A stretch of DNA of 34,103 bases, from IMG/VR virus record IMGVR_UViG_3300047551_000990; one strand, written 5' to 3'. This DNA is from a virus. Shown piece after piece: positions 4,740-19,478 of this stretch (position 1 is its first letter; every line of letters begins with the position of its first letter). A program made the position numbers and the translations under genes. A model generated the notes under the pieces. The model did not search any database, had not been told where the DNA came from, and saw only the letters and a list, made by a program, of their open reading frames with translations.

Positions 4740-5162
4740 TTAGGATGTTGCTTTTGTAATTGCACCTGAGATTGGCCAGGATACCGAGACAGTGGCTAGT
4801 TCGCCAACGCTGCCTGATACTGATTGCCATTCTGTAATCAACGCGCTGAAACTGTATTTTGGATTTGTTGCGGACGCTGCTGCGCTGGTCGGACGAACCT
4901 CCATCGCAACTGCTGTACCAATTTTGGTAGTTGCATCGCTTGGATAAATCAAAGTCTCAAGAGCGCCAGAAGCAAAGTCCTGGTTGAATTCAAGAACCAC
5001 TTGATTATCACGGAGGCCAGCCACACGCGTTCTGCTGGTGCTGCCCATACTTGTGGTTTCCACCACATCTAGTGTTGAAGATAATGTCACTGACGTGACA
5101 TATTGTGAGATGTCGGTGCTTGCAAGCACGACATATGCATCAGTTAAAACAAGGCGGGCCAT
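4740..5162 (-). CDS. Major tail (tube) protein, paralogue 2.
   Basis: 140 aa beginning MARLVLTDAYVV... and ending VSWPISGAITKATS. It is clearly homologous along its whole length to the upstream 137-aa ORF. It lies immediately upstream of the chaperone and has a GGAG RBS. Confidence 0.6.
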   Translation of the reverse strand: MARLVLTDAYVVLASTDISQYVTSVTLSSTLDVVETTSMGSTSRTRVAGLRDNQVVLEFNQDFASGALETLIYPSDATTKIGTAVAMEVRPTSAAASATNPKYSFSALITEWQSVSGSVGELATVSVSWPISGAITKATS

Positions 5163-5165
5163 TAG

Positions 5166-5579
5166 TTATACTCCTTTTGTAATTGCGCCTGAAATTGGCC
5201 AGGTCACGGATGCCGTGGCTAATTCTCCCACACTGCCTGATAACTCTTGCCATTCTGAGACAAGCGCTGAAAAAGTCAGAGAGGGATTTGTTGCAGATAC
5301 TGCATCACTTGTTGGCTTCACAACCACTGTGGTTAGTGTGCCAAGTAGTGGGTAAATTGTTTGCTCAACCGAGGATGTTGCAAAGTCCTGGTGGAACTCT
5401 AGTGTCACCGAATTATCGGCAAGGCCCGCAACGCGGGTACGGCCAGCAGCAATTGTTGAACTAAATGCACTGGTGTCAATCACATCTTCAGACGTCGAAA
5501 TTGTGACGCTCGCAATATGGTCAGATAAATTTACTGAATTTATCACGACTGACACATCTGTTAAGACTATGCGTGCCAT
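5166..5579 (-). CDS. Major tail (tube) protein, paralogue 1.
   Basis: Preferred start is the ATG at 5579 (MARIVLTDVSVV...) with AAGGAGA 8 nt upstream. The 30-codon extension in the ORF track (to 5669) overlaps a tightly coupled small gene. Confidence 0.6.
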   Translation of the reverse strand: MARIVLTDVSVVINSVNLSDHIASVTISTSEDVIDTSAFSSTIAAGRTRVAGLADNSVTLEFHQDFATSSVEQTIYPLLGTLTTVVVKPTSDAVSATNPSLTFSALVSEWQELSGSVGELATASVTWPISGAITKGV

Positions 5580-5752
5580 TATTTGGTTTCTCCTTCTTGT
5601 GTCGGTACTGCTTTTGCGGTTTGTGCTGACACAAGATGACCACCTGCGACTAACGCCGCAACATTGCATCCTGCTTCAAGCAGTTCTTTTTCTGTCATTG
5701 CTTCGCCTTTTTTCTTCAAAGCAAAACTGTCAGAATTTACTATGTATCCCAT
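5579..5752 (-). CDS. Small hypothetical protein (57 aa), absent from the ORF track.
   Basis: MGYIVNSDSFALKKKGEAMTEKELLEAGCNVAALVAGGHLVSAQTAKAVPTQEGETK. The ATG directly abuts the upstream stop (5753-5755). Its TAA shares one base with the downstream ATG (TAATG). Confidence 0.5.
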   Translation of the reverse strand: MGYIVNSDSFALKKKGEAMTEKELLEAGCNVAALVAGGHLVSAQTAKAVPTQEGETK

Positions 5753-6846: not shown

Positions 6847-7530
6847 TTATTCTTTCCACGATAAGTGGTGTCTTTCATCCAGCCAATACGATTTCTGATG
6901 TGGCAAAATGGCTCCTGTGTGAACGTGTATCGGGAAGCCTAATTGTCTTACACGGCGTGAAAACAGCAAATCTTCGCTAATCCAGTTACCATCAATCGGG
7001 CCATCCCAGAACCAACACCAATCTTTGCCTTGATTTGGGTCGGCTTCTTCACGCATCTTTTCAAGCACACTTCGGTGAATCAAGAGGCATCCAGTTCCGC
7101 AAGCATCAATTTGAAATACTGAATTGCGGTCATATTTGAACAAAGGCAAAAAGCCTTCTGGCACATCTTGAAAAATTGCTGGCACTGGCTTTGGGTATAA
7201 ATGTTTGTGTGCATCAAATGCTGCAAAGACTAGCGCCGAAACAACTGGTCGCTCTTTATCGTGAGCGGTTTGGATAAGTAAATCAAATACTTCTGTGGAA
7301 AGTTGTTCATCCACATCAATCATCAAAAGCCAATCAGAATCGGTATTCTCTAAGAATGCCTTCACTATGCGATTGCGCATTTTAGAAAGTAATCCAGAGC
7401 CTTTGATTCTGACAAATGGCCCTAATTTGTCACGGCGGTCTTGGCAGAGTTGAAACATTCTATATGCCCACGCCGCGTTGACAGTGCCTGGGTCACAGGC
7501 GCCAATTGAAACTTTGTGTCCTGTTTTCAT
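6847..7530 (-). CDS. GT-A fold glycosyltransferase (family 2-like).
   Basis: DxD motif in LLMIDVDEQ, then GTGCLLIHRSVL and SEDLLFSRRVRQLGFPIHV. Preferred start is the ATG at 7530 (MKTGHKV). The track start at 7599 would run into the post-capsid hairpin. Confidence 0.65.
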   Translation of the reverse strand: MKTGHKVSIGACDPGTVNAAWAYRMFQLCQDRRDKLGPFVRIKGSGLLSKMRNRIVKAFLENTDSDWLLMIDVDEQLSTEVFDLLIQTAHDKERPVVSALVFAAFDAHKHLYPKPVPAIFQDVPEGFLPLFKYDRNSVFQIDACGTGCLLIHRSVLEKMREEADPNQGKDWCWFWDGPIDGNWISEDLLFSRRVRQLGFPIHVHTGAILPHQKSYWLDERHHLSWKE

Positions 7531-7555
7531 TGATTCCCCCGAATCATTATGAAGC

Positions 7556-7595
7556 GTAGGAGCAGGCAAGTCGGGGGATTCCCACCTGCTCCTAC
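7556..7595 (-). other. Perfect 11-bp stem-loop directly downstream of the major capsid gene.
   Basis: gtaggagcagg (7556-7566) pairs with cctgctcctac (7585-7595) across an 18-nt loop. No clear U-tract follows on the minus strand. Confidence 0.4.
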
Positions 7596-7620
7596 ACAAC
7601 TATTTAGTTATTCCTTCAGA

Positions 7621-8961
7621 TTAGAAGGATGGTGCAACTAGACCAGTTCCTGAAATGATGGAAGCGGCTGCTGCATATCTCTGAGCAGTGAAGGCAGAGA
7701 AGCCATAAACAACAGTCTTGATGGTTAGGCTACCTGGGGTAGTTGCATCAAAACGTAGTGAGAATGGTGAACCTGGTTGCTCCCATAGGTGCATTTCGCG
7801 AGCATCAACAAGATAGATTTCATCTTGGTTGGTTGCTGCGCCGTAAGTTGTTCCTACGTTTGCATCTGTGATGATTGGCAAACCAAGTAGTTGATAACCT
7901 GAGTTTGCATACTGAGCAACGCCTGCGCCAGTTGATACTGCATTCTGTGGAACTCCAGCGGCTGGAACAACCAATGGACGACCAGCAGTATCAGTGGATG
8001 CTAGCAAAAATGCTAGGCGGCGTGGGTGCATAATCCAGTGAGTTGGTGTTGTGAACACATTGCTCTGAATTTTTTGCAGTGCATCTGCCAACTTTGGATA
8101 AAGTAACGCAGTCGTTGGAGCAGTTGAAGTGAAAGTAACTGAATTTCCACCAGCATTGCGAATACCTGTGAACTGACCATTGCTACCAGAGCCATTTAGG
8201 ACCTGATTATCAAGAGTTGTGTGCCAAGAACGGATAAGGTCAGCAACAACGAATGTGTCAATGCCTGTTCCGCGCTCAATTGCTTGGCGTGATAGGTCTT
8301 GCTGTCCAGCGATTGTGCGTACTGGAACTGAGAGCAGAGTGTCATCAGCATCAGTTTCGGAAACAGCAGTGTTCTGTGTCTCCTGAATTGCTGTTGATGT
8401 ACCTGTGGTCATACGGCTGATTTCTAGCGACATACCAGCGGCAGGAAGTGCCATCTTGTTTGTTGCGAAGTCAGCAGTTGGGCGACCTGCGCGAGCAAGA
8501 GGTGCTGCAAGGTCAACTAGATATTGTGGAACAACAAGTCCAGCGAAGTTTGATGTATCAACATCGCGACGCTCAACTGATTCTTCCTTCATATGACGTG
8601 CTAGGCGCTCTTGTGCGCTGTAATCGCCACGGACCTGTGCATTGAATGCATCACGGACGAATGAAGTTCCGTTGTCTGGGCGGTAGGTACGCTCTTCGCG
8701 TACGATTGAAGTTGTTGCCTTTGGTAGTGCTTCTGCAACAACAGAACGTGCCTCTGCTGCCTTTGCATCTGCAACTGCCTGAGCAGTTAACTTCTCAATT
8801 TTTGCATCGAGCGAGCGTGATTCTTCAACGAGGGCATCAACCTTTTCGGTTTCCTCTGCTGTGAGGTCGGTGCGGTTCTCGGCGGCTACTGCCTCAAGAA
8901 CTGCATCCATTTCAGCCTTCACTGCATCACGGCGCTCAATTACTTTGTCAACATATGACAT
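7621..8961 (-). CDS. Major capsid protein, HK97 fold, with an N-terminal delta (scaffolding) coiled coil.
   Basis: Starts MSYVDKVIERRDAVKAEMDAVLEAVAAENRTDLTAEETEKVDALVEESRSLDAKIEKLTAQ, followed by a body of about 330 aa. It follows the prohead protease. AAGGAGA lies 9 nt upstream of the ATG at 8961. Confidence 0.85.
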   Translation of the reverse strand: MSYVDKVIERRDAVKAEMDAVLEAVAAENRTDLTAEETEKVDALVEESRSLDAKIEKLTAQAVADAKAAEARSVVAEALPKATTSIVREERTYRPDNGTSFVRDAFNAQVRGDYSAQERLARHMKEESVERRDVDTSNFAGLVVPQYLVDLAAPLARAGRPTADFATNKMALPAAGMSLEISRMTTGTSTAIQETQNTAVSETDADDTLLSVPVRTIAGQQDLSRQAIERGTGIDTFVVADLIRSWHTTLDNQVLNGSGSNGQFTGIRNAGGNSVTFTSTAPTTALLYPKLADALQKIQSNVFTTPTHWIMHPRRLAFLLASTDTAGRPLVVPAAGVPQNAVSTGAGVAQYANSGYQLLGLPIITDANVGTTYGAATNQDEIYLVDAREMHLWEQPGSPFSLRFDATTPGSLTIKTVVYGFSAFTAQRYAAAASIISGTGLVAPSF

Positions 8962-9079
8962 TGTTTGAGTTCTCCTTGTGAGTGTTTGTAAGGTTCCGAG
9001 GTGGTGGCGATGATAATTCACGGCGCTTGCGGGTGTGAGTCTCGCTCCGACTTCGTAATCTGCTCGAATGAGCAGAAAT

Positions 9080-10579
9080 CTATTTTGTGTTTTGGATTAT
9101 TGCTTTTGCCAAACGAAGTGAGATTTTACGGCTCTGTTCTTCAGTTGGCGCTGGTAGTGGGTCAATGGCACGAAGTTCTGATGACTTGTGACCAACCAAT
9201 GTTTCAGTAGCGACCCATCCATCACGAAGTTCGCGATACACGCGGATGAGGATTGCAGGGTCTCCTTCTTCGGCAGTGATAGAGAAGTCAGAATCAGGAA
9301 TCCCAAGGACTCCTTCACGCATAACGTGTTCGATGCGACCACGGGCAGTTCCGCCAGATGAATCCCATTCTACGAAATCTCCAACAACATCAACGGCGCG
9401 AACAGATTCAGTTTCAATCTCTTCTTCTTCATCTTCCATATCGTCATCATCTTCATCTTGCATATCTAATAATTCAGATAGATAGTCACGAAGGGCTTTG
9501 ATGGAATCCTCATCCAACTTGCGACCTTCCTTAATTGCGTCCAAAGCGTGAGCAATCTTCTGTCTGGCTTCAACTGTGGTAGTTGGATAGGCAGGATAGG
9601 TGACAACTGAGACATCGCCATCGGCGAGCGATACTTCAGTCAATGTGCGCTCGCTCTTATCTTTGTTCCAATTTTGACGGATGACGCGGAAAGCAAAACT
9701 CATCTGGTCAACATCGCCGCGCTCAACAAGGGTATAAATGTCACGGGCTTCTTGGGTATCTGCAAGTTCTGCATCAAAGCGAAGGCCACGGTCATCTTCA
9801 ATTAAATTCAATGTGCCATTCTTAGTGCGAGCCAAAGGCAAACCTTCGTGATTGATAAGAAGTCTGACATCAGGCATTTCAGTTAAAGTCTTACGAAACG
9901 CGCCTGGTGCGATTCTCTCTTTGAATGGTAGTGGCACGCTAGCGTCATTGAACACTGCTGCATACCCCGACAAACGCATCACGCCATCTTCTGTTTGACG
10001 TGCTTCGACATCTTGCACCACATATGTGCGGCGTTCTATCTTTTTCATTTTGCTCCTTGAATCGGCTTCAGCATCGAGTGCATCAATTTTGCGTTGCGCC
10101 CAATTTTGCGCTCTATCACTGAAGTTGGAATCGCCGCCCCATAAAAGCCAGGCAACTAATCCTGCTCCTGGATATTCAGCGTGCGAAGGGTCACTGTTTT
10201 TTGGTGCTTGCCCATCAACTTTATGGCGGGCAAACCAAGGTGCCATTTTGCGAACCTTGTTTTCTGTAATTCTTCCTGATGCCATCTCGCGTGCTTCACG
10301 CTTTGTGCCATCAGTTAAACCATCTCCCCCAAAGCCTTCTTCTAAATACTTCAAACCACGCGCAGCATTCTCGCGAATAAATGAAGGAGCAGATAAATCA
10401 ACTGCTCTTATTTCTCCACCTGGTTCCATATCTTCTGAAATCGAAATTGCAACCATCTGGTCAATTGCATCTTGCTTTGTGCTATGACAACCAATGGTTG
10501 TATATGAACCATCTGCTTCTTGTTTTACTGCTGCCCATCCATCACAATCACTTTGATTCTCTGAGATGTAATAAGGCAT
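9080..10579 (-). CDS. Capsid maturation (prohead) protease, HK97/S78 family, fused to extra N- and C-terminal domains.
   Basis: Central region: GYAAVFNDASVPLPFKERIAPGAFRKTL...LLINHEGLPLARTKNGTLNLIEDDRGLRFDAEL...DVDQMSFAFRV...VSVVTYPAYP. Around it sit about 175 aa of N-terminal domain, an acidic linker DEDDDDMEDEEEE and a C-terminal GDFVEWDSSGGTARGRIEHV domain. Confidence 0.8.
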   Translation of the reverse strand: MPYYISENQSDCDGWAAVKQEADGSYTTIGCHSTKQDAIDQMVAISISEDMEPGGEIRAVDLSAPSFIRENAARGLKYLEEGFGGDGLTDGTKREAREMASGRITENKVRKMAPWFARHKVDGQAPKNSDPSHAEYPGAGLVAWLLWGGDSNFSDRAQNWAQRKIDALDAEADSRSKMKKIERRTYVVQDVEARQTEDGVMRLSGYAAVFNDASVPLPFKERIAPGAFRKTLTEMPDVRLLINHEGLPLARTKNGTLNLIEDDRGLRFDAELADTQEARDIYTLVERGDVDQMSFAFRVIRQNWNKDKSERTLTEVSLADGDVSVVTYPAYPTTTVEARQKIAHALDAIKEGRKLDEDSIKALRDYLSELLDMQDEDDDDMEDEEEEIETESVRAVDVVGDFVEWDSSGGTARGRIEHVMREGVLGIPDSDFSITAEEGDPAILIRVYRELRDGWVATETLVGHKSSELRAIDPLPAPTEEQSRKISLRLAKAIIQNTK

Positions 10580-11967
10580 TACTCAACCTCATAAACTGCT
10601 TCAGGAGATGCAGGGTCAATTGTTGAAACTGCTTGCAATTGAGTTGATGGAACACCAGTGTGTTTGATTGATGGCATATCAAGTGCCTTTAGAACCGCTT
10701 GTGGGTCAAAGCCAACTTGAACAAGTTGAGCAATGATTTCAGAGCGGAGTTTCATACCAACTTCAGGAGCATCAGCAGCATCAATGTTCTGCAATGGCAC
10801 ACGGTGTTGGTCGCCTGCTTCGCCTAGTGGTGATAAATCTTCAACAGCGCGAACATCATTTAGTGAAAGGAAACCTTCACGAAGGCCCTTTGTGTAGGCA
10901 TCGTAGCGCTCAATTGTTGTGCCACGAAGTAGCGCATCAAGATTAAACTTGATGAAACCATCTGATTCTGGAAGTAATGGTGAGAGTGCTTGTTCAATGC
11001 GCTCCAAGAGTGGGCGAAGTGAATGTTGCACGAAAGATAAGTTCTGCGCTTCAACTGATGCAAATGACATCGCACCAGCAACAGGATGGCCCAGTAGCGA
11101 GACAGGCACGCGGAAAAGGCGGGCTATTTCCTCAACCCCGAAGCGTCTGACTTCAAGCAACTGGGCATCGGCGGCGTTTAGTGTGAGCGGCTTGAAAGAC
11201 GCTCCACCAGTTAACACGCCGATTTTGCCCGCTCTATATGGGCCAGTGTGCGTGATATTCCAATCGCGAGCAAGGTCTGAAACCTGCTCTTCTGTCATAT
11301 CACCTGGCGCTTCAATAACGCCACCAGGATTGGCAGCGTTGCCGAAATATGAAGCAGCATAAACTTCAGCAGCCATTGCAGAACCAAGAGTTACGCGGGC
11401 TGCACCGATTGGGCCAAGACCTAGAAGTTGTCCAGGAAGTCTAAAGAGCGGGATGTGAACAATTTGGTTTGCATCAAGATTAAATGAGAAGTTGCCTACA
11501 GCATCGCGAACACGATAACGAACAGGCTCCCCTGGTATTGGGCGTTCAACTAGAACATCGCGTGGATTCAAACAATACAGTTCAACAACATCGCCCAATT
11601 CATCCATAACTTTAAGGATAAAGGCGTTGCCTTCTAAATTAAGTGAAGCAATGATTTGCTCATAGAACTCAAGGCGTGTTGTCTCTGGGTTTGGATTATT
11701 TACCCAAGTTGGAACTTCGCCATAAACAGCAGCATATGAAATACGGTTGCGACCACGACGAACATAAGCGCCTAGCGGTAATGAAGAGATTGTATCGCCA
11801 AGCAAACGAACGCAGGCATATACGGTTGACATACGAATTGCAGTTTCAGAATTAACATCAACGCCTGCTGGCGATGCGTATGCTGGTCTGCCTGGAATCA
11901 GCGGTTCAACAAACTGATTCTGCGCACGCTTTTCACCTGCTGCGCGAAGTCTTTTAGATAGACTCAT
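10579..11967 (-). CDS. Portal protein (HK97 family).
   Basis: 462 aa. STVYACVRLLGDTISSLPLGAYV is a typical portal motif. It lies directly upstream of the protease with a 1-nt overlap. Confidence 0.85.
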   Translation of the reverse strand: MSLSKRLRAAGEKRAQNQFVEPLIPGRPAYASPAGVDVNSETAIRMSTVYACVRLLGDTISSLPLGAYVRRGRNRISYAAVYGEVPTWVNNPNPETTRLEFYEQIIASLNLEGNAFILKVMDELGDVVELYCLNPRDVLVERPIPGEPVRYRVRDAVGNFSFNLDANQIVHIPLFRLPGQLLGLGPIGAARVTLGSAMAAEVYAASYFGNAANPGGVIEAPGDMTEEQVSDLARDWNITHTGPYRAGKIGVLTGGASFKPLTLNAADAQLLEVRRFGVEEIARLFRVPVSLLGHPVAGAMSFASVEAQNLSFVQHSLRPLLERIEQALSPLLPESDGFIKFNLDALLRGTTIERYDAYTKGLREGFLSLNDVRAVEDLSPLGEAGDQHRVPLQNIDAADAPEVGMKLRSEIIAQLVQVGFDPQAVLKALDMPSIKHTGVPSTQLQAVSTIDPASPEAVYEVE

Positions 11968-13036
11968 TGCCTGCCTTTTCTGTTCTTAATTGATACCAAC
12001 CGCCATCCCAAAGGGTTAGCAGTTTGCGGAAGTAATCTTCGTACTCTTTGGCGATAACATCTAGCGCATATCGGCCAACAGAATGTTCTCTGATTTTCTT
12101 TCGGTCTAGTGTTTTAACGTTTTCGGCTGCATCTATAAACTCTTGCAGCGTTCTGCAACGGTAGCCTGTCAGACCGTTGATGTTGTTTTCTGTAAATGCG
12201 CCCCAGTCGGTTGTGATAGTAGGCGTGCCACAGGCTTGGGCTTCAATAACTACATTTCCAAATGGTTCGATGTAGAGCGTTGGAGCAAAGGTTGCGATGG
12301 CATTTCCCATCAACTCTGCTCTTTGCTCTGGACCTACTGAGCCTACAAACTCGCCATAGCCAGTGGCCTGCCCTGGACCTGCCAAGATAAGTCTCTTGCC
12401 AAGGCGCTGGCAGACTTCTTGCGCTATTTGATAGCCCTTGCGTTCAATCAGGCGGCCAATGAAGAGGTAGTAATCGCCTTTGCCTTCACCAAGTGGAAAC
12501 ATCTCTGGTTCTAAATAACCTGGAATCACAGTATCAAAGAATTGACCATCAACTGTTGTCGGGTTCTTGTGACCTGCATAGATTGAGTGCATCCAGGCAT
12601 ATGATTCAAAAACTCTAAACTTACTAAATACTCCGCCATAACCAACGCCAAATTCAACGCTAGTGTGATTCGGGTAGGCATCGGCAATTGGCTTATGTGC
12701 GTATCCACCGATGAGGCAGATGAAATCTTGCGGTTGCAAATGGCTCTGCATCAGCCTAATCACATTGGCATTGAAGATTTGCCAGTGCAGAGCGCTGGTG
12801 TCGAAACTTGCCTGCGTGTAGTGGCTGTTGCCAACTGCCTCGGCGCGGCGCTCTTCTGAGATGCAGGTGATGAGTTTGGTAACTGGCGCTTCTACCTGCT
12901 CGCCAGCGTATAAATAAACTTCGTGACCAAGACCTGTCATCATTATGCAAAAGCGCCTGACCTTTTCGGTGAAGGCGCATCCTGCGAATTCTTTAGTTAC
13001 TTGTGTATGTGGCAATGCCACAACGTGAAATCTCAT
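11954..13036 (-). CDS. GT-B fold glycosyltransferase (GT4-like).
   Basis: YYLFIGRLIERKGYQIA...LILAGPG...EPFGNVVIEAQACGTP (E-x7-E motif). Its 3' end overlaps the portal start by 14 nt. Confidence 0.75.
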   Translation of the reverse strand: MRFHVVALPHTQVTKEFAGCAFTEKVRRFCIMMTGLGHEVYLYAGEQVEAPVTKLITCISEERRAEAVGNSHYTQASFDTSALHWQIFNANVIRLMQSHLQPQDFICLIGGYAHKPIADAYPNHTSVEFGVGYGGVFSKFRVFESYAWMHSIYAGHKNPTTVDGQFFDTVIPGYLEPEMFPLGEGKGDYYLFIGRLIERKGYQIAQEVCQRLGKRLILAGPGQATGYGEFVGSVGPEQRAELMGNAIATFAPTLYIEPFGNVVIEAQACGTPTITTDWGAFTENNINGLTGYRCRTLQEFIDAAENVKTLDRKKIREHSVGRYALDVIAKEYEDYFRKLLTLWDGGWYQLRTEKAGNESI

Positions 13037-13292: not shown

Positions 13293-13799
13293 TTAGGAGT
13301 TTTTAATGCCGTATAAGGTGGCGGTTGAGTATTGGGATAATGTGCCTGAACTTGGCGTAATTGTAATAGAAGTAATTGCACTTGTAAGGGTTGCTAGACC
13401 TGCAATTAAATCTAAACTGTTACTTGATGATGCGTTGTGTTCAACTGCTACATCGGAAGAAATACTTTTATTATTACTACTTGTATAATTTGGAATATAC
13501 ATTTCACAATTACTAAAAGTATTACTTGTAGAAATACTGGTATTTCCATATAGCCAATTTGTCGTTGCAGTTGTGCTGCCTACAGTGCTGCCATCTGCAT
13601 AAAGTATGCGCCCAGAATAAGTAGGGCTACCATTAAAAGTAACATCTAAAGAACCATATTGATTACTTGTTCGGGAATCTCTTGTTGATACTTTTACAAC
13701 TAAATCAGTATAAGTAGCAGGTATAGAACTAAAAGTAATATTAGCCGCCCCACCGCTACCAACAGTCACAGTTGCTATTGCTTTATATGTTGTAGGCAT
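13293..13799 (-). CDS. Fibre-module paralogue C (beta-rich, ends LYGIKNS).
   Basis: 168 aa. MPTTYKAIATVTVGSGGAANITFSSIPATYTDLVV aligns with the two upstream genes. Confidence 0.6.
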   Translation of the reverse strand: MPTTYKAIATVTVGSGGAANITFSSIPATYTDLVVKVSTRDSRTSNQYGSLDVTFNGSPTYSGRILYADGSTVGSTTATTNWLYGNTSISTSNTFSNCEMYIPNYTSSNNKSISSDVAVEHNASSSNSLDLIAGLATLTSAITSITITPSSGTLSQYSTATLYGIKNS

Positions 13800-14284
13800 T
13801 ATGCCGCCTTAATTCCGTAGAGGGTGAAGGTTGAGCCTGAAGTAAAAGTGTTAGGGCTTTTTACATCTACCTGAGTAATTGCGGCTGTGCTACGCCATAA
13901 ACCAACTGTTGCAGTTGCTGATATAGCAGCAGCAGATGAACGACCAATAGCAGTTTTATATGTAGTGCTGTTAGAATAATTCATAATGTGAATTATATTT
14001 GGGTAAAAGTCTGCGGTGCTTTGATTGTAAAATCTCATCTCGCTTACGCTAGAAAACCTGCCTGATGCGGCGGCTGACCCATCGCCTTGTAGATAAGTTG
14101 CTGAGTAGTTTGTTCCAGTATCGCCATTAAATTGTAGGAAAAGTCTGTCAGTATTACTAGAAGTTAATTTGACTGTTGCTACTAAAACAAGGTCAGTATA
14201 GGAACCGCTAATTGAAGTAAAGGAAACTGTCGCTTGTGCGCTGCCTAGCGTTGTCGTTGCTATCGGCTCATAAGTAATTGCCAT
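13799..14284 (-). CDS. Fibre-module paralogue B (ends LYGIKAA).
   Basis: 161 aa. MAITYEPIATTTLGSAQATVSFTSISGSYTDLVL, NGDTGTNYS, and LWRSTAAITQV shared with paralogue A. Confidence 0.6.
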   Translation of the reverse strand: MAITYEPIATTTLGSAQATVSFTSISGSYTDLVLVATVKLTSSNTDRLFLQFNGDTGTNYSATYLQGDGSAAASGRFSSVSEMRFYNQSTADFYPNIIHIMNYSNSTTYKTAIGRSSAAAISATATVGLWRSTAAITQVDVKSPNTFTSGSTFTLYGIKAA

Positions 14285-14287
14285 TGG

Positions 14288-14896
14288 CTATGCCCCCTTT
14301 ATGCCGTATAGGGCGAAGTGTGAGTATTGTGCAAAGTCATTTGCGGATGGGTCAAATGAAACTGAAGTTATGGCAGATGTGCTACGCCATAAACCTGAAG
14401 CCAAAACAATAGTTCCAGAATATGGACTACCTCCGCCGTTCAAGTCATTACCACTAAGAACTCTAAAAGTCTTAAATTTATTAGTATTGGCATAATCTAA
14501 AATGTCTATAACTACACCGCCAAAAGCGCTTGTAACTGAAGATGTAGAAGCAGTAGCAAACCAACCTAAGTTCATACTTGTCGCGCTAGTTCCAGCATCA
14601 GTATTGGCGCTTGTTCCATTTCCATAAAGCCAATGCCAAGCATAATTAGAACCAGTATCACTATTAACTCTTGTATAAAGTTGGTCAATAGAAAAATCTG
14701 TTCTAGTTCCGCGAGCAATACCTCTAATTTGTAAATGTGTATAGGTAGCAGGAATAGAAGTAAACTCTACAGTAGCAGCACCGCCACTACCAACAGATAC
14801 AGTAGCGATGGATTCAAAGTCAGTAGGAATATACGGGTCATTACCTACCAACAGATTACCTCTGCGTAGTTTATTCTTTATGCTGACTACAGCCAT
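14288..14896 (-). CDS. Fibre-module paralogue A, carrying the extra N-terminal LLVGN module (ends LYGIKGA).
   Basis: 202 aa. MAVVSIKNKLRRGNLLVGNDPYIP, then FESIATVSVGSGGAATVEFTSIPATYTHLQI, NSDTGSNYA and LWRSTSAITSV. Confidence 0.6.
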   Translation of the reverse strand: MAVVSIKNKLRRGNLLVGNDPYIPTDFESIATVSVGSGGAATVEFTSIPATYTHLQIRGIARGTRTDFSIDQLYTRVNSDTGSNYAWHWLYGNGTSANTDAGTSATSMNLGWFATASTSSVTSAFGGVVIDILDYANTNKFKTFRVLSGNDLNGGGSPYSGTIVLASGLWRSTSAITSVSFDPSANDFAQYSHFALYGIKGA

Positions 14897-15258
14897 TAAA
14901 TTACTACCTCATCCCAAGACAGGGTTGCTTCATTCCAGGTGTACATCTTGTCATCAGTCGGATAGGCGACAGGAGGCTGCCATCTAGCATCAGCATCTAG
15001 TGTCCAAGAAGGATATGGCTGAGGGGCATAGAAGTAATCATTAGCAGCATCATAAGTATAACCAATGCCTGCATAGTTTTTACGGAAGTTGCCGTTGTAT
15101 GAAGTCTGCTTCCACTTGGTATCTTCACCAAAGAGTGACTTGCAGAATAAAATACCCTTGACTTCGCTTTCAACTCCGTCAAGTAGTAGTTCATCGTTGG
15201 CTACAACGATTACCTGTGTGACTATGTTGTTGTCATCTAGTTGTGCAAAGTGTGCCAT
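14896..15258 (-). CDS. Conserved phage hypothetical protein, often seen next to fibre genes.
   Basis: 120 aa. MAHFAQLDDNNIVTQVIVV...WKQTSYNGNFRKNYAGIGYTYD...PQPYPSW. I recognise the family pattern but know no function for it. Confidence 0.55.
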   Translation of the reverse strand: MAHFAQLDDNNIVTQVIVVANDELLLDGVESEVKGILFCKSLFGEDTKWKQTSYNGNFRKNYAGIGYTYDAANDYFYAPQPYPSWTLDADARWQPPVAYPTDDKMYTWNEATLSWDEVVI

Positions 15259-15267: not shown

Positions 15268-16173
15268 TTAATAAGTAATTGACCCTGAAGCATTAAACTG
15301 ATAAATATGATATGAACCTGAAGTAGTATATGTAGGCGAACCTGTTGTAGATGCTGCTGCTTGGAGTGCGCGAACAATAACTACGCCTGAACCGCCAGCA
15401 CCGCCATCTCGACTTCCGCCTCCTGTTTGACGACCAGCGGCACCACCACCGCCACCTGTATTAGCAGTACCAGCAGAACCATTTCCATTTGTTCCATTAA
15501 AAGCATTACCGCCACCACCAGAGCCACCAGTTCCACCAGTTGTTCCAGTGAAATTGTGACCACCGCCACCACCACCTGCGTAAGTAACTGACGAACCTGT
15601 AATAGAAACTGCTACTCCATTACCGCCATTACCGCCTGCTCCAGAATTACCTGCTCCACCTTGTGAACCTGCTGCACCAGCACCTCCGCCACCACCTGCT
15701 GCGCCATTTCCAGAATTACCAGCACCACCAGCATAACCTTGATTAGCGGTGCCTGCGCCACCAGCAGAAGATGATTCACCACCAGTACCACCACCAGAGC
15801 CACCAGTTCCACCAGCACCTTGTCCTGCTAATCCACCACCAGTTGAAGTGATAGTAGAAAATACAGAATTGTTTCCAGCAGAACTATTAGCATCACCAAT
15901 ACCACCAGCGCCTCCAGCGCCAATGGTTACAGTATAAGAAGTTCCAACAAGCAAACTTAATGAAGATTCAACGGAGCCTCCGCCACCCGTAGCGGTAACA
16001 GTTGAGCGCAAACCACCTGCGCCGCCACCACCTGCAGAGTTTGAAGCAGAACCACCGCCTCCGCCCCCGCCTGCAACAACAAGATAATCAACAGTTACGG
16101 GAGGAATATAGTAAGCATTACCAACAAGCAGGCTACGGCTAAAGGTTCCGTTCTTAAGACTTCTGATTGCCAT
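15268..16173 (-). CDS. Glycine-rich (PGRS-like composition) fibre-like protein 2.
   Basis: Preferred start is the ATG at 16173 (TAATG overlap with the upstream stop): MAIRSLKNGTFSRSLLVGNAYYIPPVTVDYLVVAGGGGGGG. It is colinear with the upstream paralogue. Confidence 0.6.
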   Translation of the reverse strand: MAIRSLKNGTFSRSLLVGNAYYIPPVTVDYLVVAGGGGGGGSASNSAGGGGAGGLRSTVTATGGGGSVESSLSLLVGTSYTVTIGAGGAGGIGDANSSAGNNSVFSTITSTGGGLAGQGAGGTGGSGGGTGGESSSAGGAGTANQGYAGGAGNSGNGAAGGGGGAGAAGSQGGAGNSGAGGNGGNGVAVSITGSSVTYAGGGGGGHNFTGTTGGTGGSGGGGNAFNGTNGNGSAGTANTGGGGGAAGRQTGGGSRDGGAGGSGVVIVRALQAAASTTGSPTYTTSGSYHIYQFNASGSITY

Positions 16174-17057
16174 TAGAAGGTTATGCTCCCGCTTCCGTTC
16201 CATTGATAAATTGTGTATCCACCTGATTCAGTTCTAGTCGGAGAACCAGTTGTTGAGGCTGCAGTAATAGAACCAGGAATTCTGATAATTACTATACCGC
16301 TTCCGCCAGCGCCACCATTGCCGCCATTTTGTTCAGAAGCACCGCCGCCTCCGCCTGTGTTTGCTGTCCCAGCGTTACCAGTATTACCACCAGCACCACC
16401 ACCACCAGTTCCGCCTGCGCCATTCGTTCCACTCGTTCCAGCACCACCACCTCCACCACCGCCTCTGGTTACTGATGAACCAGTAATAGATGAAGCAACG
16501 CCATTACCACCAGCCATACCGTTATTTGAATTTCCTGAGTTAGTTGCACCGACAGCACCAGCACCGCCACCTCCGCCGCCGCCACTAGATGAATTAACAT
16601 TAAAATTACCGCCATTTCCACCAGCGTAACCTTGATTAGCAGTTCCAGCGCCACCAGTTTGTCCACTTAATGCAGCCGAACCACCGCCACCTGAACCACC
16701 GCTTGCACCATTACCAAATAGACGACCGCCTAAACCACCGCCAGTTGAAGTGATAGTAGAAAATACAGAATTAGAACCATTTGCGGAAAATGTGCCACCT
16801 GCGCCAACTGTTACTGTATAGGAAACTCCATAAGATAAAGATAATCTTGACTCAGCAGATGCTCCCCCGCCAGATGTTTCACCTACAACAGAACAACGAT
16901 AACCTCCTGCACCTCCGCCACCGCCTCTATTGTCACCACCGCTTCCACCACCTGCAACAACTAAATATTCAACAGTAGATAATGGACTATAGGCAGCATT
17001 ACCAACAAGCAAACTAGACGGTGATGTGTTACCTGTCTTGTAACTTGTGATTGACAT
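16173..17057 (-). CDS. Glycine-rich (PGRS-like composition) fibre-like protein 1.
   Basis: 294 aa. MSITSYKTGNTSPSSLLVGNAAYSPLSTVEYLVVAGGGSGG...SYTVTVGAGG...NSVFSTITSTGGG...GTANQGYAGG...GSGIVIIRIPG...YTIYQWNGSGSITF. Confidence 0.6.
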   Translation of the reverse strand: MSITSYKTGNTSPSSLLVGNAAYSPLSTVEYLVVAGGGSGGDNRGGGGGAGGYRCSVVGETSGGGASAESRLSLSYGVSYTVTVGAGGTFSANGSNSVFSTITSTGGGLGGRLFGNGASGGSGGGGSAALSGQTGGAGTANQGYAGGNGGNFNVNSSSGGGGGGGAGAVGATNSGNSNNGMAGGNGVASSITGSSVTRGGGGGGGAGTSGTNGAGGTGGGGAGGNTGNAGTANTGGGGGASEQNGGNGGAGGSGIVIIRIPGSITAASTTGSPTRTESGGYTIYQWNGSGSITF

Positions 17058-17383
17058 TAGACCGAAGCCTCATCTCCAAACGCCTGGAATACTAGGTTTG
17101 CCGTTGAAGCGTATACTGAAATCACATCCGTTGCTGCAAGAGTTAAGCCAACGGTAATCAGTGTTGAGTCAGATGCACCTACTGTAATGTCATAGCCAAT
17201 GTAGTGAGCATTGGTAATTGACGCACCAGCAGGACGTACTGCAAGACGAAATGTTGCAGCAGTAGCAGTTAGGTTAGCAACAGAGATTGTTGATACTACT
17301 GCTTCCTTTGCTGAAGGTACTGTGTACAGGGTTGTTAGTGTTGTCGCAGATGGGTTTGATTGCCCAAGAACTTTTTTTGCCAT
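17057..17383 (-). CDS. Small beta-rich structural-module protein.
   Basis: 108 aa. TLTTLYTVPSAKEAVVSTISVANLTATAATFRLAVRP...DVISVYASTANLVFQAFGDE. Its stop overlaps the next start by 1 nt. Confidence 0.5.
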   Translation of the reverse strand: MAKKVLGQSNPSATTLTTLYTVPSAKEAVVSTISVANLTATAATFRLAVRPAGASITNAHYIGYDITVGASDSTLITVGLTLAATDVISVYASTANLVFQAFGDEASV

Positions 17384-17402: not shown

Positions 17403-19478
17403 TTATGCGCCCATCAACATAAAACTTGCTGGATAAACATTGAGTTCTGAACCAGATGGACCTGTTGCACCTGTTGGCCCAGTAGAACCTGTTGAACCAA
17501 CTGGACCTGTTGCGCCTGTTGCACCTACTGGACCAGTTGCACCAACGGGACCAGTTGCACCAACAGGACCAGTTGCACCAACGGGTCCTGTAGCACCTAC
17601 TGGACCAGTTGCACCAACGGGACCAGTTGCACCAGTATCACCTTGAACGCCTTGTGGTCCAGTCGCGCCAACTGGACCTGTTGCCCCAACTGCTCCAGTT
17701 GCACCAACTGCGCCAGTTGCACCTACTGGTCCTGTTGCACCTGTTGGTCCAACAAGATTGACACCAGCAGGCCATACACCAGCGGCCTTTGGTCCAAAAA
17801 TTTGATTACTTGAAGTGTTGATATAGAAGTCGCCATTAACGCCTTCAGTAGTAGGGTCAACAGTGCCATTAAGAACTGAAAATCCTTGTGGTCCTGTTAC
17901 ACCTGTTGGACCTGTTGCACCGACTGGTCCTGTGGCACCTATTGGTCCTGTAGCACCAACTGGTCCTGTTGCACCGACATCACCTTGAATTCCTTGAACA
18001 CCTTGTGGTCCTGTTGCACCAGTTGCGCCAACTGCGCCTTGTGGTCCTGTTGGTCCTGTTGGTCCTTCAGCGCCAGCAGGTCCTGTTACACCTGTTGGTC
18101 CTGTTGCTCCAACATCACCTTGAATTCCTTGTGGTCCTGTGGCACCTACTGGTCCTGTTGCACCTACTGGTCCTGTTGCGCCAACTGGTCCTGTCGCTCC
18201 GACTGGTCCTGTTGCTCCAACATCGCCCTGAACGCCTTGTGGTCCAGTTGCGCCAATAGGTCCTGTTGGACCTGTGGCGCCTGTCGCACCTGTCGCACCA
18301 ACTGGTCCTGTAGCACCAACTGGTCCTGTTGCACCTGTCGGACCAACTACGCCTGCTGAAACAATTGCAACAATCAACTGATGATTGCTTGCAAAGTTTG
18401 TTGTGCCTGTACCACCTGATGCTGTAAGAGTTACTGGGACTTCAACATAGCCTGTTTGAAGTGTTGGTGTTGCCGATACTGTCCATTTTTGGTAGTTATC
18501 GGATAAAGATTTATCTTGAACAATAATTACATCGTTTGTTTTGATAAGCGCTAAAAATATGTCAATGTCAACGCCATCATCATTTATGTGACTGATATTG
18601 ATTTGAGTAGCAGAAATTTGTGTAGCATTATTCCAAAGAATGTCACCAGTGCTAGGGTCGCCCGTTGTGCTAGTTGTATTTGCTCTGTAGTCATAATAGT
18701 TAGCAGAACCACCGTCAGCACCAGTTGCTCCCGTTGCGCCTGTTGCACCTGTAGCACCTGTCGGTCCTGTAGCGCCTGTGGCTCCAATAGGTCCAGTAGG
18801 ACCTGTTGAGCCTGTTGGTCCTTGAATGTTTCCTACATTTTCCCATTGACTATTGCCAACGCTCCATACATAAAGGTCACCAGCGCCGACAATGTAAGCA
18901 TCGCCCTGGTTGCCAGTTGGATGTGCTGCTTGCAGCGCTGCAAGAGTTGCATAAGAACCAAGAATTTGAATTCCAGCACCAGTAGCGCCAGTTGCACCTG
19001 TCGGTCCAGTCGCACCAGTAATACCTGTAGGACCAGTAGCACCTGTTGCACCTACTGGGCCAGTTGAACCTTGAGGACCTGTTGCGCCAATTGAACCTGT
19101 AGCACCTGTTGCACCTACTGGACCAGTTGAACCAGTATCGCCTTGAGGACCTGTTGCACCGACATTACCTTGAATTCCAGTTGCACCAGTTGCGCCAACA
19201 TTTCCTTGAATGCCTTGAATTCCTTGAATACCTTGTGGGCCTGTTGCACCTGTTGGTCCAATATCGCCAGTTGCACCGACAGGACCTGTGACACCTGTTG
19301 GTCCTGTTAAACCTTGAACACCAGTTGGACCTGTTACACCTGTAGCACCAGTAGCACCTACTGGACCAGTTGCACCAGCAGGACCTGTTGCACCTGTTGG
19401 ACCGACGGGGCCTGCAACGCCAACATCGCTTACAACAACGGTGTTTGTATCTTCAATTATCTCGACTGTATTAGACAC
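17403..19478 (-). CDS. Collagen-like triple-helix repeat fibre protein.
   Basis: 691 aa with four long uninterrupted G-x-y tracts, mostly [12 protein letters not shown] triplets, separated by three non-collagen domains. Confidence 0.85.
17521..17628. repeat. Six tandem 18-bp units inside the collagen-like gene. 17521-17556 is exactly repeated at 17593-17628.
   Basis: Units read directly: gcacctactggaccagtt, gcaccaacgggaccagtt, gcaccaacaggaccagtt, gcaccaacgggtcctgta, gcacctactggaccagtt, gcaccaacgggaccagtt. Confidence 0.85.

What the first reader, a model, noticed from the sequence alone, without database searches (positions are those of the whole stretch)
6847..13036. Two glycosyltransferases embedded in the head-gene operon suggest virion or fibre glycosylation
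A GT-B/GT4-like enzyme (11954..13036; EPFGNVVIEAQACGTP) overlaps the portal start. A GT-A/GT2-like enzyme (6847..7530; DVD and ED motifs) lies between the major capsid gene and the head-tail connector.

Phage glycosyltransferases usually sit in early or moron regions, where they modify DNA or host O-antigen. Placement inside the late structural operon argues for a protein substrate made at the same time.

Virion protein glycosylation has been reported for some mycobacteriophages, and Thr-rich collagen repeats are glycosylated in Bacillus BclA. The Thr-rich collagen-like protein, the Ser/Thr-rich paralogues and the capsid protein are all plausible substrates. No sugar-nucleotide biosynthesis genes are present, so host UDP/GDP-sugars would be used.
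Basis: inference. Interest (0 to 1): 0.7.

Follow-up and report, generated by a model that had tools for sequence, protein, structure and literature searches.

The report
Phage glycosyltransferases tied to collagen-like fibres
A freshwater actinobacterial phage carries two real sugar-transferring enzymes inside its virion-gene block, and comparison with hundreds of relatives suggests that at least one of them decorates a threonine-rich collagen-like fibre protein rather than DNA or the host surface.

Summary
Window 11954-13036 (-) encodes a soluble GT-B/GT4 enzyme whose stop overlaps the portal start by 14 nt. Window 6847-7530 (-) encodes a soluble GT-A enzyme with DxD, ED and His motifs, between the major capsid gene and the head-tail connector.

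The window is a WhiB-encoding, 45% GC freshwater actinophage. It shares cassette genes at 77-92% identity with a cultured 'Ca. Planktophila' phage.

Comparative genomics refines the interpretation. GT4 is not a head gene. It is the terminal gene of a hypervariable fibre cassette: collagen-like fibre, Gly-rich proteins and S/T-rich paralogues.
- The cassette sits at three different genome positions in three phage lineages, and it ends with a glycosyltransferase wherever it carries the collagen/accessory genes.
- GT4 is absent where the cassette is absent.
- In sister phages GT4 is replaced by a GT-A+TPR enzyme with the domain architecture of C. difficile SgtA, which O-GlcNAcylates Thr in the collagen-like repeats of BclA3.
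- In 24 of 44 non-Nocardia bacterial genome loci, GT4 homologues lie within 3 kb of a Thr-rich collagen-like gene.

GT2 follows the capsid gene across lineages and assorts independently of GT4. Its substrate is unresolved.

Nothing supports DNA or membrane-linked envelope glycosylation. This is a probable new variant of known virion and collagen-like O-glycosylation, without biochemical proof.

The parts
11954..13036 (-). GT4-family (GT-B, EX7E) soluble glycosyltransferase; terminal gene of the fibre cassette; its stop overlaps the portal start by 14 nt
   Evidence: Pfam and PHROG hits; GT-B model and Foldseek matches; no transmembrane segment; occupies the slot upstream of portal in 68 of 81 scorable related loci
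6847..7530 (-). GT-A-fold glycosyltransferase (DxD at 72-74, E186-D187, H211) between the major capsid gene and the head-tail connector
   Evidence: PHROG 34859 E=2.2e-27; invariant catalytic residues; profile hit to STIV A197 at 9e-8; GT-A-only Foldseek matches; no transmembrane segment
17403..19478 (-). 691-aa collagen-like fibre protein: 148 Gly-X-Y triplets in four blocks, with Thr at Y in 85 of them; best candidate substrate of GT4
   Evidence: Pfam Collagen E=4.2e-64; triplet count; tail-fibre PHROGs
19471..19821 (-). 116-aa protein that opens the cassette and overlaps the collagen gene start by 8 nt; conserved with the collagen gene in all relatives that have the cassette
   Evidence: PHROG 1084, and PHROG 3304 'tail fibre assembly'; synteny
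17057..17383 (-). 108-aa cassette protein (25% Ser+Thr), 92% identical to a protein of cultured Planktophila phage E7
16173..17057 (-). Glycine-rich cassette protein (33% Gly, 24% Ser+Thr)
   Evidence: Pfam Gly_rich_2 E=2.4e-10; PHROG 2295
15268..16203 (-). Second glycine-rich cassette protein, a paralogue of the previous one
   Evidence: PHROG 2295 E=8.9e-43
14896..15258 (-). 120-aa conserved cassette protein (PHROG 7759); in many relatives it is the gene just before the terminal GT
13293..14896 (-). Three tandem Ser/Thr-rich paralogues (202, 161 and 168 aa; 23-35% Ser+Thr); variable in number and sequence among relatives, and fused to Gly-rich domains in L057
13056..13280 (-). 74-aa Ala/Glu-rich cassette protein immediately upstream of GT4
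10579..11967 (-). Portal protein; marks the downstream boundary of the cassette
   Evidence: Pfam Phage_portal E=5.9e-85
7621..9021 (-). HK97-type major capsid protein, 35-38% identical to cluster J/Y mycobacteriophage capsids; candidate substrate of GT2
4740..5669 (-). Two tandem major tail protein paralogues (29% Ser+Thr each); candidate substrates by analogy with mycobacteriophage tail-tube glycosylation
   Evidence: PHROG 4574; composition

Best explanation
Both genes encode soluble, cytoplasmic glycosyltransferases that use nucleotide sugars. They are expressed with the late virion genes and O-glycosylate phage structural proteins before or during assembly, using host nucleotide sugars.

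GT4 (11954-13036) is the dedicated modifying enzyme of the hypervariable fibre cassette upstream of it. Its most likely acceptor is the Thr-rich collagen-like fibre protein (17403-19478). It may also act on the Ser/Thr- and Gly-rich cassette proteins, or on a sugar already attached to them. This would be analogous to glycosylation of Bacillus BclA and C. difficile BclA3.

The GT-A enzyme (6847-7530) is an independent second glycosylation function that travels with the capsid gene. It modifies either the capsid or tail-tube subunits, as in mycobacteriophages, or fibre proteins. The glycan coat would alter fibre surface chemistry: adsorption or host range, stability, or masking.

Shown here: enzyme identities, folds and motifs, solubility, gene order, presence/absence patterns, and adjacency to collagen-like genes across phyla. 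Inferred: late co-expression, the acceptor proteins, the sugar, and the biological role.
For: 1. Enzyme identity is established.

2. The operon is tight. Gene gaps run from -31 to +19 nt between g116 and the protease, and GT4 overlaps portal by 14 nt. No terminator or promoter signal exceeds chance.

3. A glycosyltransferase ends the cassette wherever the collagen/accessory genes are present.
- Lineage 1: TerL-[cassette]-GT-portal.
- Lineage 2 (capsid 35% identical): MCP-GT2-[cassette]-GT4 or GT-A+TPR-connector.
- Cultured Planktophila phage E7: tail fibre-[cassette, g108 92% and g120 77% identical]-GT-A.

4. Covariation.
- Six lineage-1 loci have TerL abutting portal, with neither cassette nor GT4. 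Where the sequence extends that far, GT2 is retained (L186, L187).
- Lineage-2 loci with only a plain fibre have no terminal GT.

5. Non-orthologous replacement in the same slot.
- Five loci carry a 353-aa GT-A+TPR enzyme (PHROG 13126, 2.9e-111).
- Two loci carry an unknown protein, a TPR protein and an FkbM methyltransferase.
- GT-A plus a C-terminal TPR at about 355 aa is the architecture of C. difficile SgtA, whose gene lies immediately upstream of bclA3. SgtA adds beta-O-GlcNAc to Thr of GPT collagen repeats in vitro (PMC7157674).

6. Adjacency to collagen-like genes beyond these phages.
- In 24 of 44 non-Nocardia bacterial genome loci from several phyla, homologues of 39-75% identity lie within 3 kb, on the same strand, of a Thr-rich Gly-X-Y gene.
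- One is a two-gene (GPT)n-collagen + GT4 unit in a non-phage neighbourhood.
- Cyanomyovirus S-CAM7 has its 41%-identical homologue among collagen-like genes, a 2OG-Fe(II) oxygenase and a tail-fibre gene.

7. The window collagen protein has Thr at the Y position in 85 of 148 triplets.

8. There is precedent for GTs inside actinophage structural operons with reported virion glycosylation: Corndog gp35-38. A GT cluster sits in the capsid-connector interval of Courthouse, whose capsid is 38% identical.

9. Neither GT has a transmembrane segment. No base-hydroxymethylation or deazaguanine genes are in the window.
Against: - No biochemical data exist for any member of either family.
- The closest solved relatives of GT4 act on sugars or small molecules, not proteins: Tll1591, BH4 glucosyltransferase, MshA, PimA, BshA, AviGT4. 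No protein O-GT appears in the top 50 structural matches.
- GT4 homologues in 35 Nocardia loci have no Thr-rich collagen-like neighbour.
- Only 24 of 80 cyanomyovirus-type loci have a collagen-like run within 8 kb.
- Cassette-GT4 covariation within each phage lineage rests on few independent events. The first 80 loci were selected through GT4 itself.
- The cassette-less loci do not cover whole genomes, so a cassette elsewhere cannot be excluded.
- GT2 presence or absence leaves the capsid C-terminus essentially unchanged.
- Neither GT shows detectable homology to the Corndog or Courthouse GTs.
- The GT2 structural model is of moderate quality. Its resemblance to collagen galactosyltransferases (TM about 0.4) is not discriminating.
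- It is not shown that the cassette proteins are virion components.
Confidence: 0.6

Rival explanations
1. Host-envelope remodelling. The GTs modify host cell-wall polysaccharide, teichoic-acid-like polymers or their cytoplasmic precursors. This would block superinfection or adsorption of progeny to lysing cells. It is the usual interpretation of GTs in aquatic phage genomes.
For: - Authors of the Planktophila phage and pelagimyophage papers proposed cell-surface or DNA roles for their GTs.
- The nearest solved relatives of GT4 make cell-envelope or low-molecular-weight glycoconjugates: PimA, MshA, BshA and the Tll1591 glucan enzyme.
- JGI labels homologues 'glycosyltransferase involved in cell wall biosynthesis'.
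Against: - Neither enzyme has a membrane anchor, and no flippase or polyprenol-linked partner is present.
- The gene is locked to the end of a fibre cassette in three genome positions and is lost with it.
- Homologues sit next to collagen-like genes even in non-phage cellular loci.
- The replacement enzyme has SgtA architecture.
- Expression from the late operon of an apparently lytic phage leaves little time for surface remodelling to matter.
Confidence: 0.15
2. A two-step pathway on one substrate. The GT-A enzyme initiates O-glycosylation on Ser/Thr of a virion protein, and GT4 elongates the glycan, so that the two genes form a single system.
For: - The closest structural relatives of GT4 use sugar acceptors, for example Tll1591.
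- In lineage 2 the two GTs flank the fibre cassette.
- In phage E7 a GT-A of the same PHROG as the window's GT2 ends the cassette.
- SgtA-type initiation followed by unidentified extension is the model for BclA3.
Against: - All combinations occur among relatives. GT4 is present without GT2 in 5 scorable loci. GT2 is present without GT4 or cassette. GT-A+TPR occurs with or without GT2. An obligatory partnership is therefore unlikely.
Confidence: 0.15
3. DNA glycosylation. One or both GTs add sugars to phage DNA to evade host restriction.
For: - This is the classical role of phage GTs (T4 alpha- and beta-glucosyltransferases), and it was suggested for the Planktophila phages.
Against: - The window has no gene for a hydroxymethylated or otherwise modified base, and no phage DNA polymerase. 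It encodes only a primase-helicase, nucleases and recombination functions.
- The GT4 and GT-A families found here are not the DNA-glucosyltransferase families.
- The genes sit in the virion block and follow fibre genes.
Confidence: 0.04

Closest known systems
Mycobacteriophage virion glycosylation (Che8, Corndog, Myrna; Freeman et al. 2023, as summarised in PMC11256854, PMC11600133 and PMC12363180)
   Same: - Actinobacterial phages with phage-encoded GTs.
- In Corndog the GTs lie inside the head-gene block. In cluster J Courthouse they lie in the capsid-to-connector interval, the slot occupied by the window's GT2.
- The window capsid is 35-38% identical to cluster J/Y capsids.
- A methyltransferase partner appears in some sister loci (FkbM).
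   Different: - There is no detectable sequence homology between the window GTs and the Corndog or Courthouse GTs.
- The reported substrates there are capsid and tail-tube subunits. Here the strongest link is to a collagen-like fibre cassette.
- The window itself has no methyltransferase.
Clostridioides difficile SgtA-BclA3 (exosporium collagen-like glycoprotein and its adjacent O-GlcNAc transferase; PMC7157674)
   Same: - A GT gene lies next to a collagen-like gene with Thr at the Y position.
- Cytoplasmic O-glycosylation of Thr in Gly-X-Thr repeats.
- The GT-A+TPR enzyme of about 355 aa that replaces GT4 in sister phages has the same domain architecture.
   Different: - The window's own enzyme is a GT-B/GT4 protein without TPR repeats.
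- The context is a spore surface, not a virion.
Bacillus anthracis BclA (GPT-repeat exosporium collagen-like glycoprotein; from general knowledge)
   Same: Thr-rich collagen-like repeats carry O-linked oligosaccharides on a filamentous surface nap.
   Different: The glycosyltransferases were not compared here. The setting is cellular, not viral.
Giant-virus and archaeal-virus structural glycosylation (PBCV-1 A64R, Mimivirus collagen/fibril glycosylation, STIV A197)
   Same: - Virus-encoded GT-A enzymes are implicated in glycosylating virion proteins.
- The GT2-family profile hits STIV A197 at E=9e-8.
- Weak, non-significant matches: PBCV-1 A64R (E=0.32) and Mimivirus R699.
   Different: - The hosts and virion architectures are very different.
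- Only the A197 match is significant, and the substrate of A197 is itself not proven.
Cyanomyovirus tail-fibre-region GT (S-CAM7 gp016, ACG-2014f)
   Same: - Same PHROG (3408), 40% identity over the full length.
- Located in the baseplate/tail-fibre module.
- In S-CAM7 it lies next to Thr-rich collagen-like genes and a 2OG-Fe(II) oxygenase.
   Different: - T4-like myoviruses of cyanobacteria.
- Only 24 of 80 related loci have a collagen-like run within 8 kb.
- The function is equally untested.

Membership tests
CAZy GT4 / Pfam Glycos_transf_1 (retaining GT-B enzymes) | Significant match to the family model above the curated threshold | tested here: met
   PF00534 53 bits against a cutoff of 26.4; PF13692 47.7 against 27
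CAZy GT4 / Pfam Glycos_transf_1 (retaining GT-B enzymes) | GT-B two-Rossmann-domain fold | tested here: met
   AlphaFold model pLDDT 76.8, pTM 0.74; 179 PDB matches at E<=1e-3, and the 50 best listed are all GT-B enzymes, mostly GT4
CAZy GT4 / Pfam Glycos_transf_1 (retaining GT-B enzymes) | EX7E motif in the C-terminal domain | tested here: met
   E-PFGNVVI-E read directly from the sequence; both Glu and the PFG residues are invariant in 28 homologues
CAZy GT4 / Pfam Glycos_transf_1 (retaining GT-B enzymes) | Retaining transfer from a nucleotide sugar | not testable with these tools
   Requires an enzyme assay
GT-A fold, GT2-like glycosyltransferases | Match to Pfam Glycos_transf_2 above the gathering score | tested here: not met
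   18.1-18.4 bits against a cutoff of 23.3; 20 of 47 family members give sub-threshold or weak GT2 hits
GT-A fold, GT2-like glycosyltransferases | Conserved DxD metal/nucleotide-sugar motif, with a downstream acidic residue and His | tested here: met
   D72, D74, D187 and H211 are invariant, and E186 is at least 90% conserved, in 47 homologues of 26-49% identity
GT-A fold, GT2-like glycosyltransferases | GT-A fold | tested here: met
   The model (pLDDT 66.6) matches mainly GT-A enzymes, and the only matches at E<=1e-3 are GT-A glycosyltransferases; TM is only 0.4-0.48. The profile hits GT-A enzyme STIV A197 at E=9e-8
Mycobacteriophage virion-glycosylation system (Che8/Corndog type) | Phage GT genes within the virion structural gene block | tested here: met
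   Window gene order; Corndog and Courthouse gene tables
Mycobacteriophage virion-glycosylation system (Che8/Corndog type) | Homology to the GTs of that system | tested here: not met
   BLASTP and profile comparisons of the window GT2 family to Corndog gp36-38 and Courthouse gp16, gp17 and gp21 are non-significant beyond the DxD region. GT4 has no mycobacteriophage hit by tblastn. Che8 gp110 was not compared
Mycobacteriophage virion-glycosylation system (Che8/Corndog type) | O-glycans on capsid and tail-tube subunits | not testable with these tools
   Needs virion mass spectrometry. The capsid C-terminus does not covary with GT2
SgtA/BclA3-type collagen-like protein O-glycosylation | GT gene genetically linked to a collagen-like gene with Thr at the Y position | tested here: met
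   Same cassette in the window, with 85 of 148 triplets carrying Thr. In 24 of 44 non-Nocardia genome loci a homologue lies within 3 kb of such a gene
SgtA/BclA3-type collagen-like protein O-glycosylation | GT-A catalytic domain plus C-terminal TPR repeats | tested here: not met
   The window enzyme is GT-B without TPR. The feature is met only by the 353-aa enzyme that replaces it in L191, L205, L206, L214 and L222
SgtA/BclA3-type collagen-like protein O-glycosylation | Transfer of GlcNAc to Thr of Gly-Pro-Thr peptides | not testable with these tools
   Requires an enzyme assay
Phage DNA glucosyltransferases (T4 alpha-/beta-GT type) | Co-occurrence with synthesis of a hydroxymethylated or otherwise modifiable base | tested here: not met
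   No such gene was found among the window ORFs scanned
GtrABC-type serotype-converting glucosylation | Membrane-anchored bactoprenol GT with flippase and membrane GT partners | tested here: not met
   Maximum 19-residue hydropathy is 1.23 (GT4) and 1.13 (GT2). No membrane partners are adjacent

The most novel reading that the evidence does not exclude
'Hypervariable fibre cassette plus terminal glycosyltransferase' is a mobile glyco-fibre module. It is shared by very abundant freshwater actinophages (including cultured Planktophila phages), by cyanomyoviruses, and by cellular BclA-like loci.

Its interchangeable terminal enzymes are GT4, SgtA-like GT-A+TPR, plain GT-A, or a methyltransferase set. 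These would diversify the glycan coat of collagen-like virion fibres in step with the fibre proteins themselves.

Phage-encoded glycans would then be a second layer of host-range or anti-recognition variation. The many 'host-surface' or 'DNA' GTs annotated in the tail-fibre regions of aquatic phages would in fact be virion-modifying enzymes.
Probability: 0.35. Interest if true: 0.75.

Novelty: new variant of a known kind. Interest (0 to 1): 0.62.

Why it matters
Glycosylation of phage particles was demonstrated only recently and only for mycobacteriophages. In aquatic phage genomics, glycosyltransferases are routinely assigned to DNA protection or host-surface remodelling.

If the reading here is right, several things follow.
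- Some of the most abundant freshwater phages, and many cyanomyoviruses, decorate collagen-like fibres with sugars.
- The modifying enzyme is swapped together with the fibre genes.
- A widespread GT4 subfamily would be a collagen-like-protein glycosyltransferase in both bacteria and phages.
- That would change how hypervariable 'host-recognition' regions are annotated.
- It would add glycans to the determinants of adsorption and host range.

The idea is directly testable, because phages carrying the same cassette (Planktophila phages E7 and F5) are in culture.

Tried and rejected
- Megablast of 6000-14000 against isolated phages found nothing. The group is known only from metagenomes and distant isolates.
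- Capsid C-terminus versus GT2. I tested whether the presence or absence of GT2 covaries with the capsid C-terminus, which is the glycosylation site in mycobacteriophages. It does not: the last 14 residues vary only conservatively with or without GT2.
- Homology to mycobacteriophage GTs was tested by BLASTP and hhalign. There is none beyond the DxD region.
- The promoter and terminator scan of 5500-22500 gave counts at or below shuffled expectation, so there is no evidence that either GT is a separately transcribed moron.
- Foldseek of the GT2 model placed human collagen galactosyltransferase and LH3 near the top. With E about 5e-4, TM about 0.4 and a model of pLDDT 66.6, this does not discriminate among GT-A families, and I do not use it as evidence.
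- Foldseek of GT4 gave no protein O-GT among the top 50 matches.
- A universal collagen partner for the cyanophage homologues is rejected: only 24 of 80 loci have one.
- The Freeman et al. 2023 paper itself is not held. Its content is cited only through papers that summarise it.
- NCBIfam gave no equivalog for any of the proteins.
- The repeat search around the cassette found only the collagen and Gly-rich coding repeats.
- The PDB sequence search with the GT-A+TPR enzyme gave only a non-significant match to Listeria GmaR (E=0.07).

Full report
**What the window is**

Almost all genes lie on the minus strand. In transcription order they are:
- small and large terminase (21485-21937, 19965-21485);
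- a block of eleven non-head genes (19821 down to 13056);
- GT4 (11954-13036);
- portal (10579-11967);
- S78 prohead protease (9080-10579);
- HK97-type major capsid protein (7621-9021);
- the GT2-like gene (6847-7530);
- a gp6-like head-tail connector (6157-6795);
- two tandem major tail proteins, the tape measure and a distal tail protein.

Upstream lie WhiB (28957-29430), a primase-polymerase/helicase, a PD-(D/E)XK nuclease, RusA, endonuclease VII, a CHAP lysin and a tail fibre with an endosialidase-chaperone domain. GC content is about 45%.

The capsid protein is 35-38% identical to those of cluster J and Y mycobacteriophages. Two cassette proteins are 92% and 77% identical to proteins of the cultured 'Ca. 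Planktophila' phage LanE43AprE7 (PMC10202952). The window is therefore a freshwater low-GC actinophage, most likely of 'Ca. Nanopelagicales'. IMG/VR holds at least 597 loci with a close GT4 relative, with no match to isolated phages at the nucleotide level.

**Checking the observation**

GT4 is unambiguous.
- Pfam Glycos_transf_1 scores well above threshold, and there is a full-length PHROG match (7e-78).
- The EX7E motif is present, and its flanking Glu, P, F and G residues are invariant among homologues.
- The AlphaFold model is a GT-B fold. Its best PDB matches are compact retaining GT4 enzymes: Tll1591 alpha-1,2-glucosyltransferase at 5e-17, tetrahydrobiopterin glucosyltransferase, AviGT4, PimA, MshA and BshA.

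The GT2-like protein fails the Pfam gathering score (18 bits against 23.3). Other evidence establishes it as a GT-A enzyme.
- It matches PHROG 34859 (2.2e-27).
- It belongs to a family of about 2,400 cluster representatives.
- D72, D74, D187 and H211 are invariant across 47 members of 26-49% identity.
- A profile of these members hits the GT-A enzyme A197 of the archaeal virus STIV at 9e-8.
- The structural model matches mainly GT-A enzymes, and its only matches at E<=1e-3 are GT-A glycosyltransferases.

Neither protein has a hydrophobic stretch compatible with a membrane helix. The 14-nt GT4/portal overlap is real. Gene spacing from the first cassette gene to the protease is -31 to +19 nt. 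No promoter or terminator signal exceeds chance.

**GT4 belongs to a fibre cassette, not to the head genes**

The eleven genes between TerL and GT4 encode:
- a 116-aa protein;
- a 691-aa collagen-like protein with 148 Gly-X-Y triplets, 85 of them with Thr at Y;
- a 108-aa protein;
- two glycine-rich proteins;
- a 120-aa protein;
- three Ser/Thr-rich paralogues;
- a 74-aa protein.

Across IMG/VR relatives the frame TerL-g116-collagen ... GT4-portal is constant. The middle of the cassette varies in content and sequence.

Among 81 distinct loci where the slot just upstream of portal can be scored:
- 68 hold GT4;
- 5 hold a 353-aa GT-A+TPR protein (PHROG 13126 'glycosyltransferase', 2.9e-111);
- 2 hold an unknown protein, a TPR protein and an FkbM methyltransferase;
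- 6 have TerL abutting portal, with no cassette and no GT.

The first 80 loci were chosen through GT4, so the 68 is inflated. The qualitative pattern is what matters.

A second lineage shares TerL at about 63%, capsid at about 35% and portal at about 31% identity. There the order is TerL-portal-protease-capsid-GT2-[collagen fibre and cassette]-(GT4 or GT-A+TPR)-connector. Where only a plain fibre follows GT2, there is no terminal GT.

In the cultured Planktophila phage E7 the cassette follows the tail-fibre gene: g108, two Gly-rich proteins, three S/T paralogues, g74 and g120. It ends with a 240-aa GT-A of the same PHROG as the window's GT2.

The cassette thus occupies three genome positions in three lineages. 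It ends with a sugar-modifying enzyme wherever the collagen/accessory genes are present, and that enzyme is exchangeable.

**Evidence that the partner is the collagen-like protein**

A scan of one genome per prokaryotic species found GT4 homologues of 39-75% identity in 79 loci.
- In 24 of the 44 non-Nocardia loci, a Thr-rich Gly-X-Y run of at least 10 triplets lies on the same strand within 3 kb. These loci come from Saccharibacteria, Kaistiaceae, Chloroflexota, Chloracidobacterium, Solirubrobacterales, a betaproteobacterium and many Clostridia.
- Four more have such a run at 3-6.4 kb, and only 4 loci have one in the more distant flanks.
- None of the 35 Nocardia loci has one.
- In an Oscillospiraceae genome, a 397-aa (GPT)n collagen protein and the GT4 homologue form a two-gene unit among metal-transport and pilus genes, so the link is not merely 'phage context'.

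In cyanomyovirus S-CAM7 the 41%-identical homologue sits between two Thr-rich collagen-like genes and a 2OG-Fe(II) oxygenase, next to a tail-fibre gene. Only 24 of 80 related cyanophage-type loci have a collagen-like run within 8 kb.

There is a characterised precedent. C. difficile SgtA is 358 aa, with a GT-A domain and four TPR repeats, and its gene lies immediately upstream of bclA3. SgtA transfers beta-O-GlcNAc to Thr of GPT repeats in vitro (PMC7157674). The enzyme that replaces GT4 in sister phages has the same architecture and size. I could not obtain the SgtA sequence to test homology.

**GT2**

The GT-A gene follows the capsid gene in both lineages despite only 35% capsid identity.
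- It is absent from 12 of 39 scorable lineage-1 loci, where the connector directly follows the capsid gene.
- It persists in the cassette-less clade.
- It occurs in every combination with the terminal enzymes.

It is therefore an accessory function independent of GT4.

Its position has a close parallel. Mycobacteriophage Courthouse, with a 38%-identical capsid, has a methyltransferase and three annotated GTs in the capsid-to-connector interval. Corndog, whose capsid and tail-tube proteins are reported to be modified by such enzymes, has a methyltransferase and three GTs inside the head block.

There is no sequence homology to those GTs. The capsid C-terminus is the same with and without GT2. 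In lineage 2 and in phage E7, members of this family lie next to fibre genes. Whether GT2 acts on capsid or tail tube, or on fibres, is unresolved.

**Rivals**

- *DNA glycosylation.* This is unlikely. There is no modified-base pathway and no phage polymerase, the GT families are the wrong ones, and the linkage is to structural genes.
- *Envelope remodelling.* This is the interpretation usual in the aquatic literature. It fits the nearest solved relatives of GT4, which use sugar or small-molecule acceptors. It does not explain four findings: linkage to and co-loss with fibre cassettes, replacement by an SgtA-like enzyme, adjacency to collagen-like genes in cellular genomes, and the absence of any membrane component.
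- *A single two-step pathway using both GTs.* This is possible, but the independent assortment of the two genes argues against it.

**Verdict**

The two glycosyltransferases are real. GT4 is the modifying enzyme of a mobile collagen-like fibre cassette, and GT2 is a separate, capsid-linked accessory enzyme.

I put about 0.6 on virion-protein glycosylation overall, somewhat less on the collagen-like protein as the specific GT4 acceptor, and low confidence on any specific GT2 acceptor.

Relative to known systems this is a new variant. It works like mycobacteriophage virion glycosylation and like BclA/BclA3 collagen-like O-glycosylation, but with unrelated enzymes, a different substrate class for a phage, and a modular cassette-plus-enzyme organisation that has not, to my knowledge, been described. 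All functional statements remain inference until virion glycoproteomics or enzyme assays are done. Cultured phages carrying the cassette make that feasible.

Noticed in passing
window 4740-5669 (-): There are two tandem paralogous major tail protein genes (167 and 140 aa, both PHROG 4574, about 29% Ser+Thr). Both end in ...WPISGAITK. The capsid protein ends in ...SIISGTGLVAPSF, so all three carry an I-S-G-[AT] motif near the C-terminus. This may be chance.
   Followed up: partly
window 9080-10579 (-): The prohead protease is unusually long at 499 aa. It has an extra N-terminal domain of about 170 aa (PHROG 2859), an acidic run (DEDDDDMEDEEEE), and a C-terminal region with a weak Hva1_TUDOR match (2.6e-4). 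In relatives the middle and C-terminal parts vary.
   Followed up: no
L052:5386-6189, L047:3895-4698, L037:615-1415: In the second phage lineage a tyrosine recombinase (Pfam Phage_integrase 1.2e-14) sits inside the fibre cassette, directly upstream of GT4. Two tandem fibre genes before it share a 28-nt, 93%-identical 3' end (L047 2471-2498 and 3676-3703) and the C-terminal peptide YLGFSAEL. This may be a cassette-exchange mechanism.
   Followed up: partly
L336 (Planktophila phage E7, OX376640) 23261-28271; window 13056-17383: The cultured Planktophila phage E7 carries the same accessory cassette as the window, with g108 92% and g120 77% identical, although the rest of the genome is unrelated by tblastn. 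This points to recent module exchange and a shared host group.
   Followed up: yes
L057:5526-6911 and 6921-8303: In some relatives the S/T-rich N-terminal module (...FTSIP.TYTDL...) and the glycine-rich module (...GGSGVVIVRY) are fused into single 460-aa proteins. The separate window genes are therefore domains of one modular protein family.
   Followed up: no
L205:4235-5023, L222:4379-5209: Some cassettes contain a protein with the N-terminal domain of the Bordetella phage major tropism determinant (Pfam Mtd_N, 3.4e-15). That protein is the target of diversity-generating retroelements. No reverse transcriptase was looked for.
   Followed up: no
L293:6033-9080 and 34 other Nocardia loci: Nocardia species have a GT4 homologue (47-56% identity) with no Thr-rich collagen-like neighbour. 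In L293 the upstream gene encodes a 643-aa protein with a Gly/Pro/Gln-rich C-terminal part, and a paralogue lies 3 kb downstream.
   Followed up: partly
window 16213-16629 (+) and 164-496 (+): Long proline-rich plus-strand ORFs are antisense artefacts of the Gly-rich and collagen-type coding repeats on the minus strand. They are not genes.
   Followed up: no
window 31748-32083 (-): A 111-aa protein next to the CHAP lysin matches PHROGs labelled 'phosphofructokinase' (4e-30). At this size and position the label is probably a database misnomer for a lysis-associated domain.
   Followed up: no
L211:2204-4389, L221:1773-3958: An alternative content of the GT slot is a 329-aa protein with no family match in Pfam, PHROGs or NCBIfam, a 172-177-aa TPR protein that resembles the C-terminal half of the GT-A+TPR enzyme, and an FkbM-type methyltransferase. 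The 329-aa protein may be a novel glycosyltransferase or sugar-modifying enzyme.
   Followed up: partly
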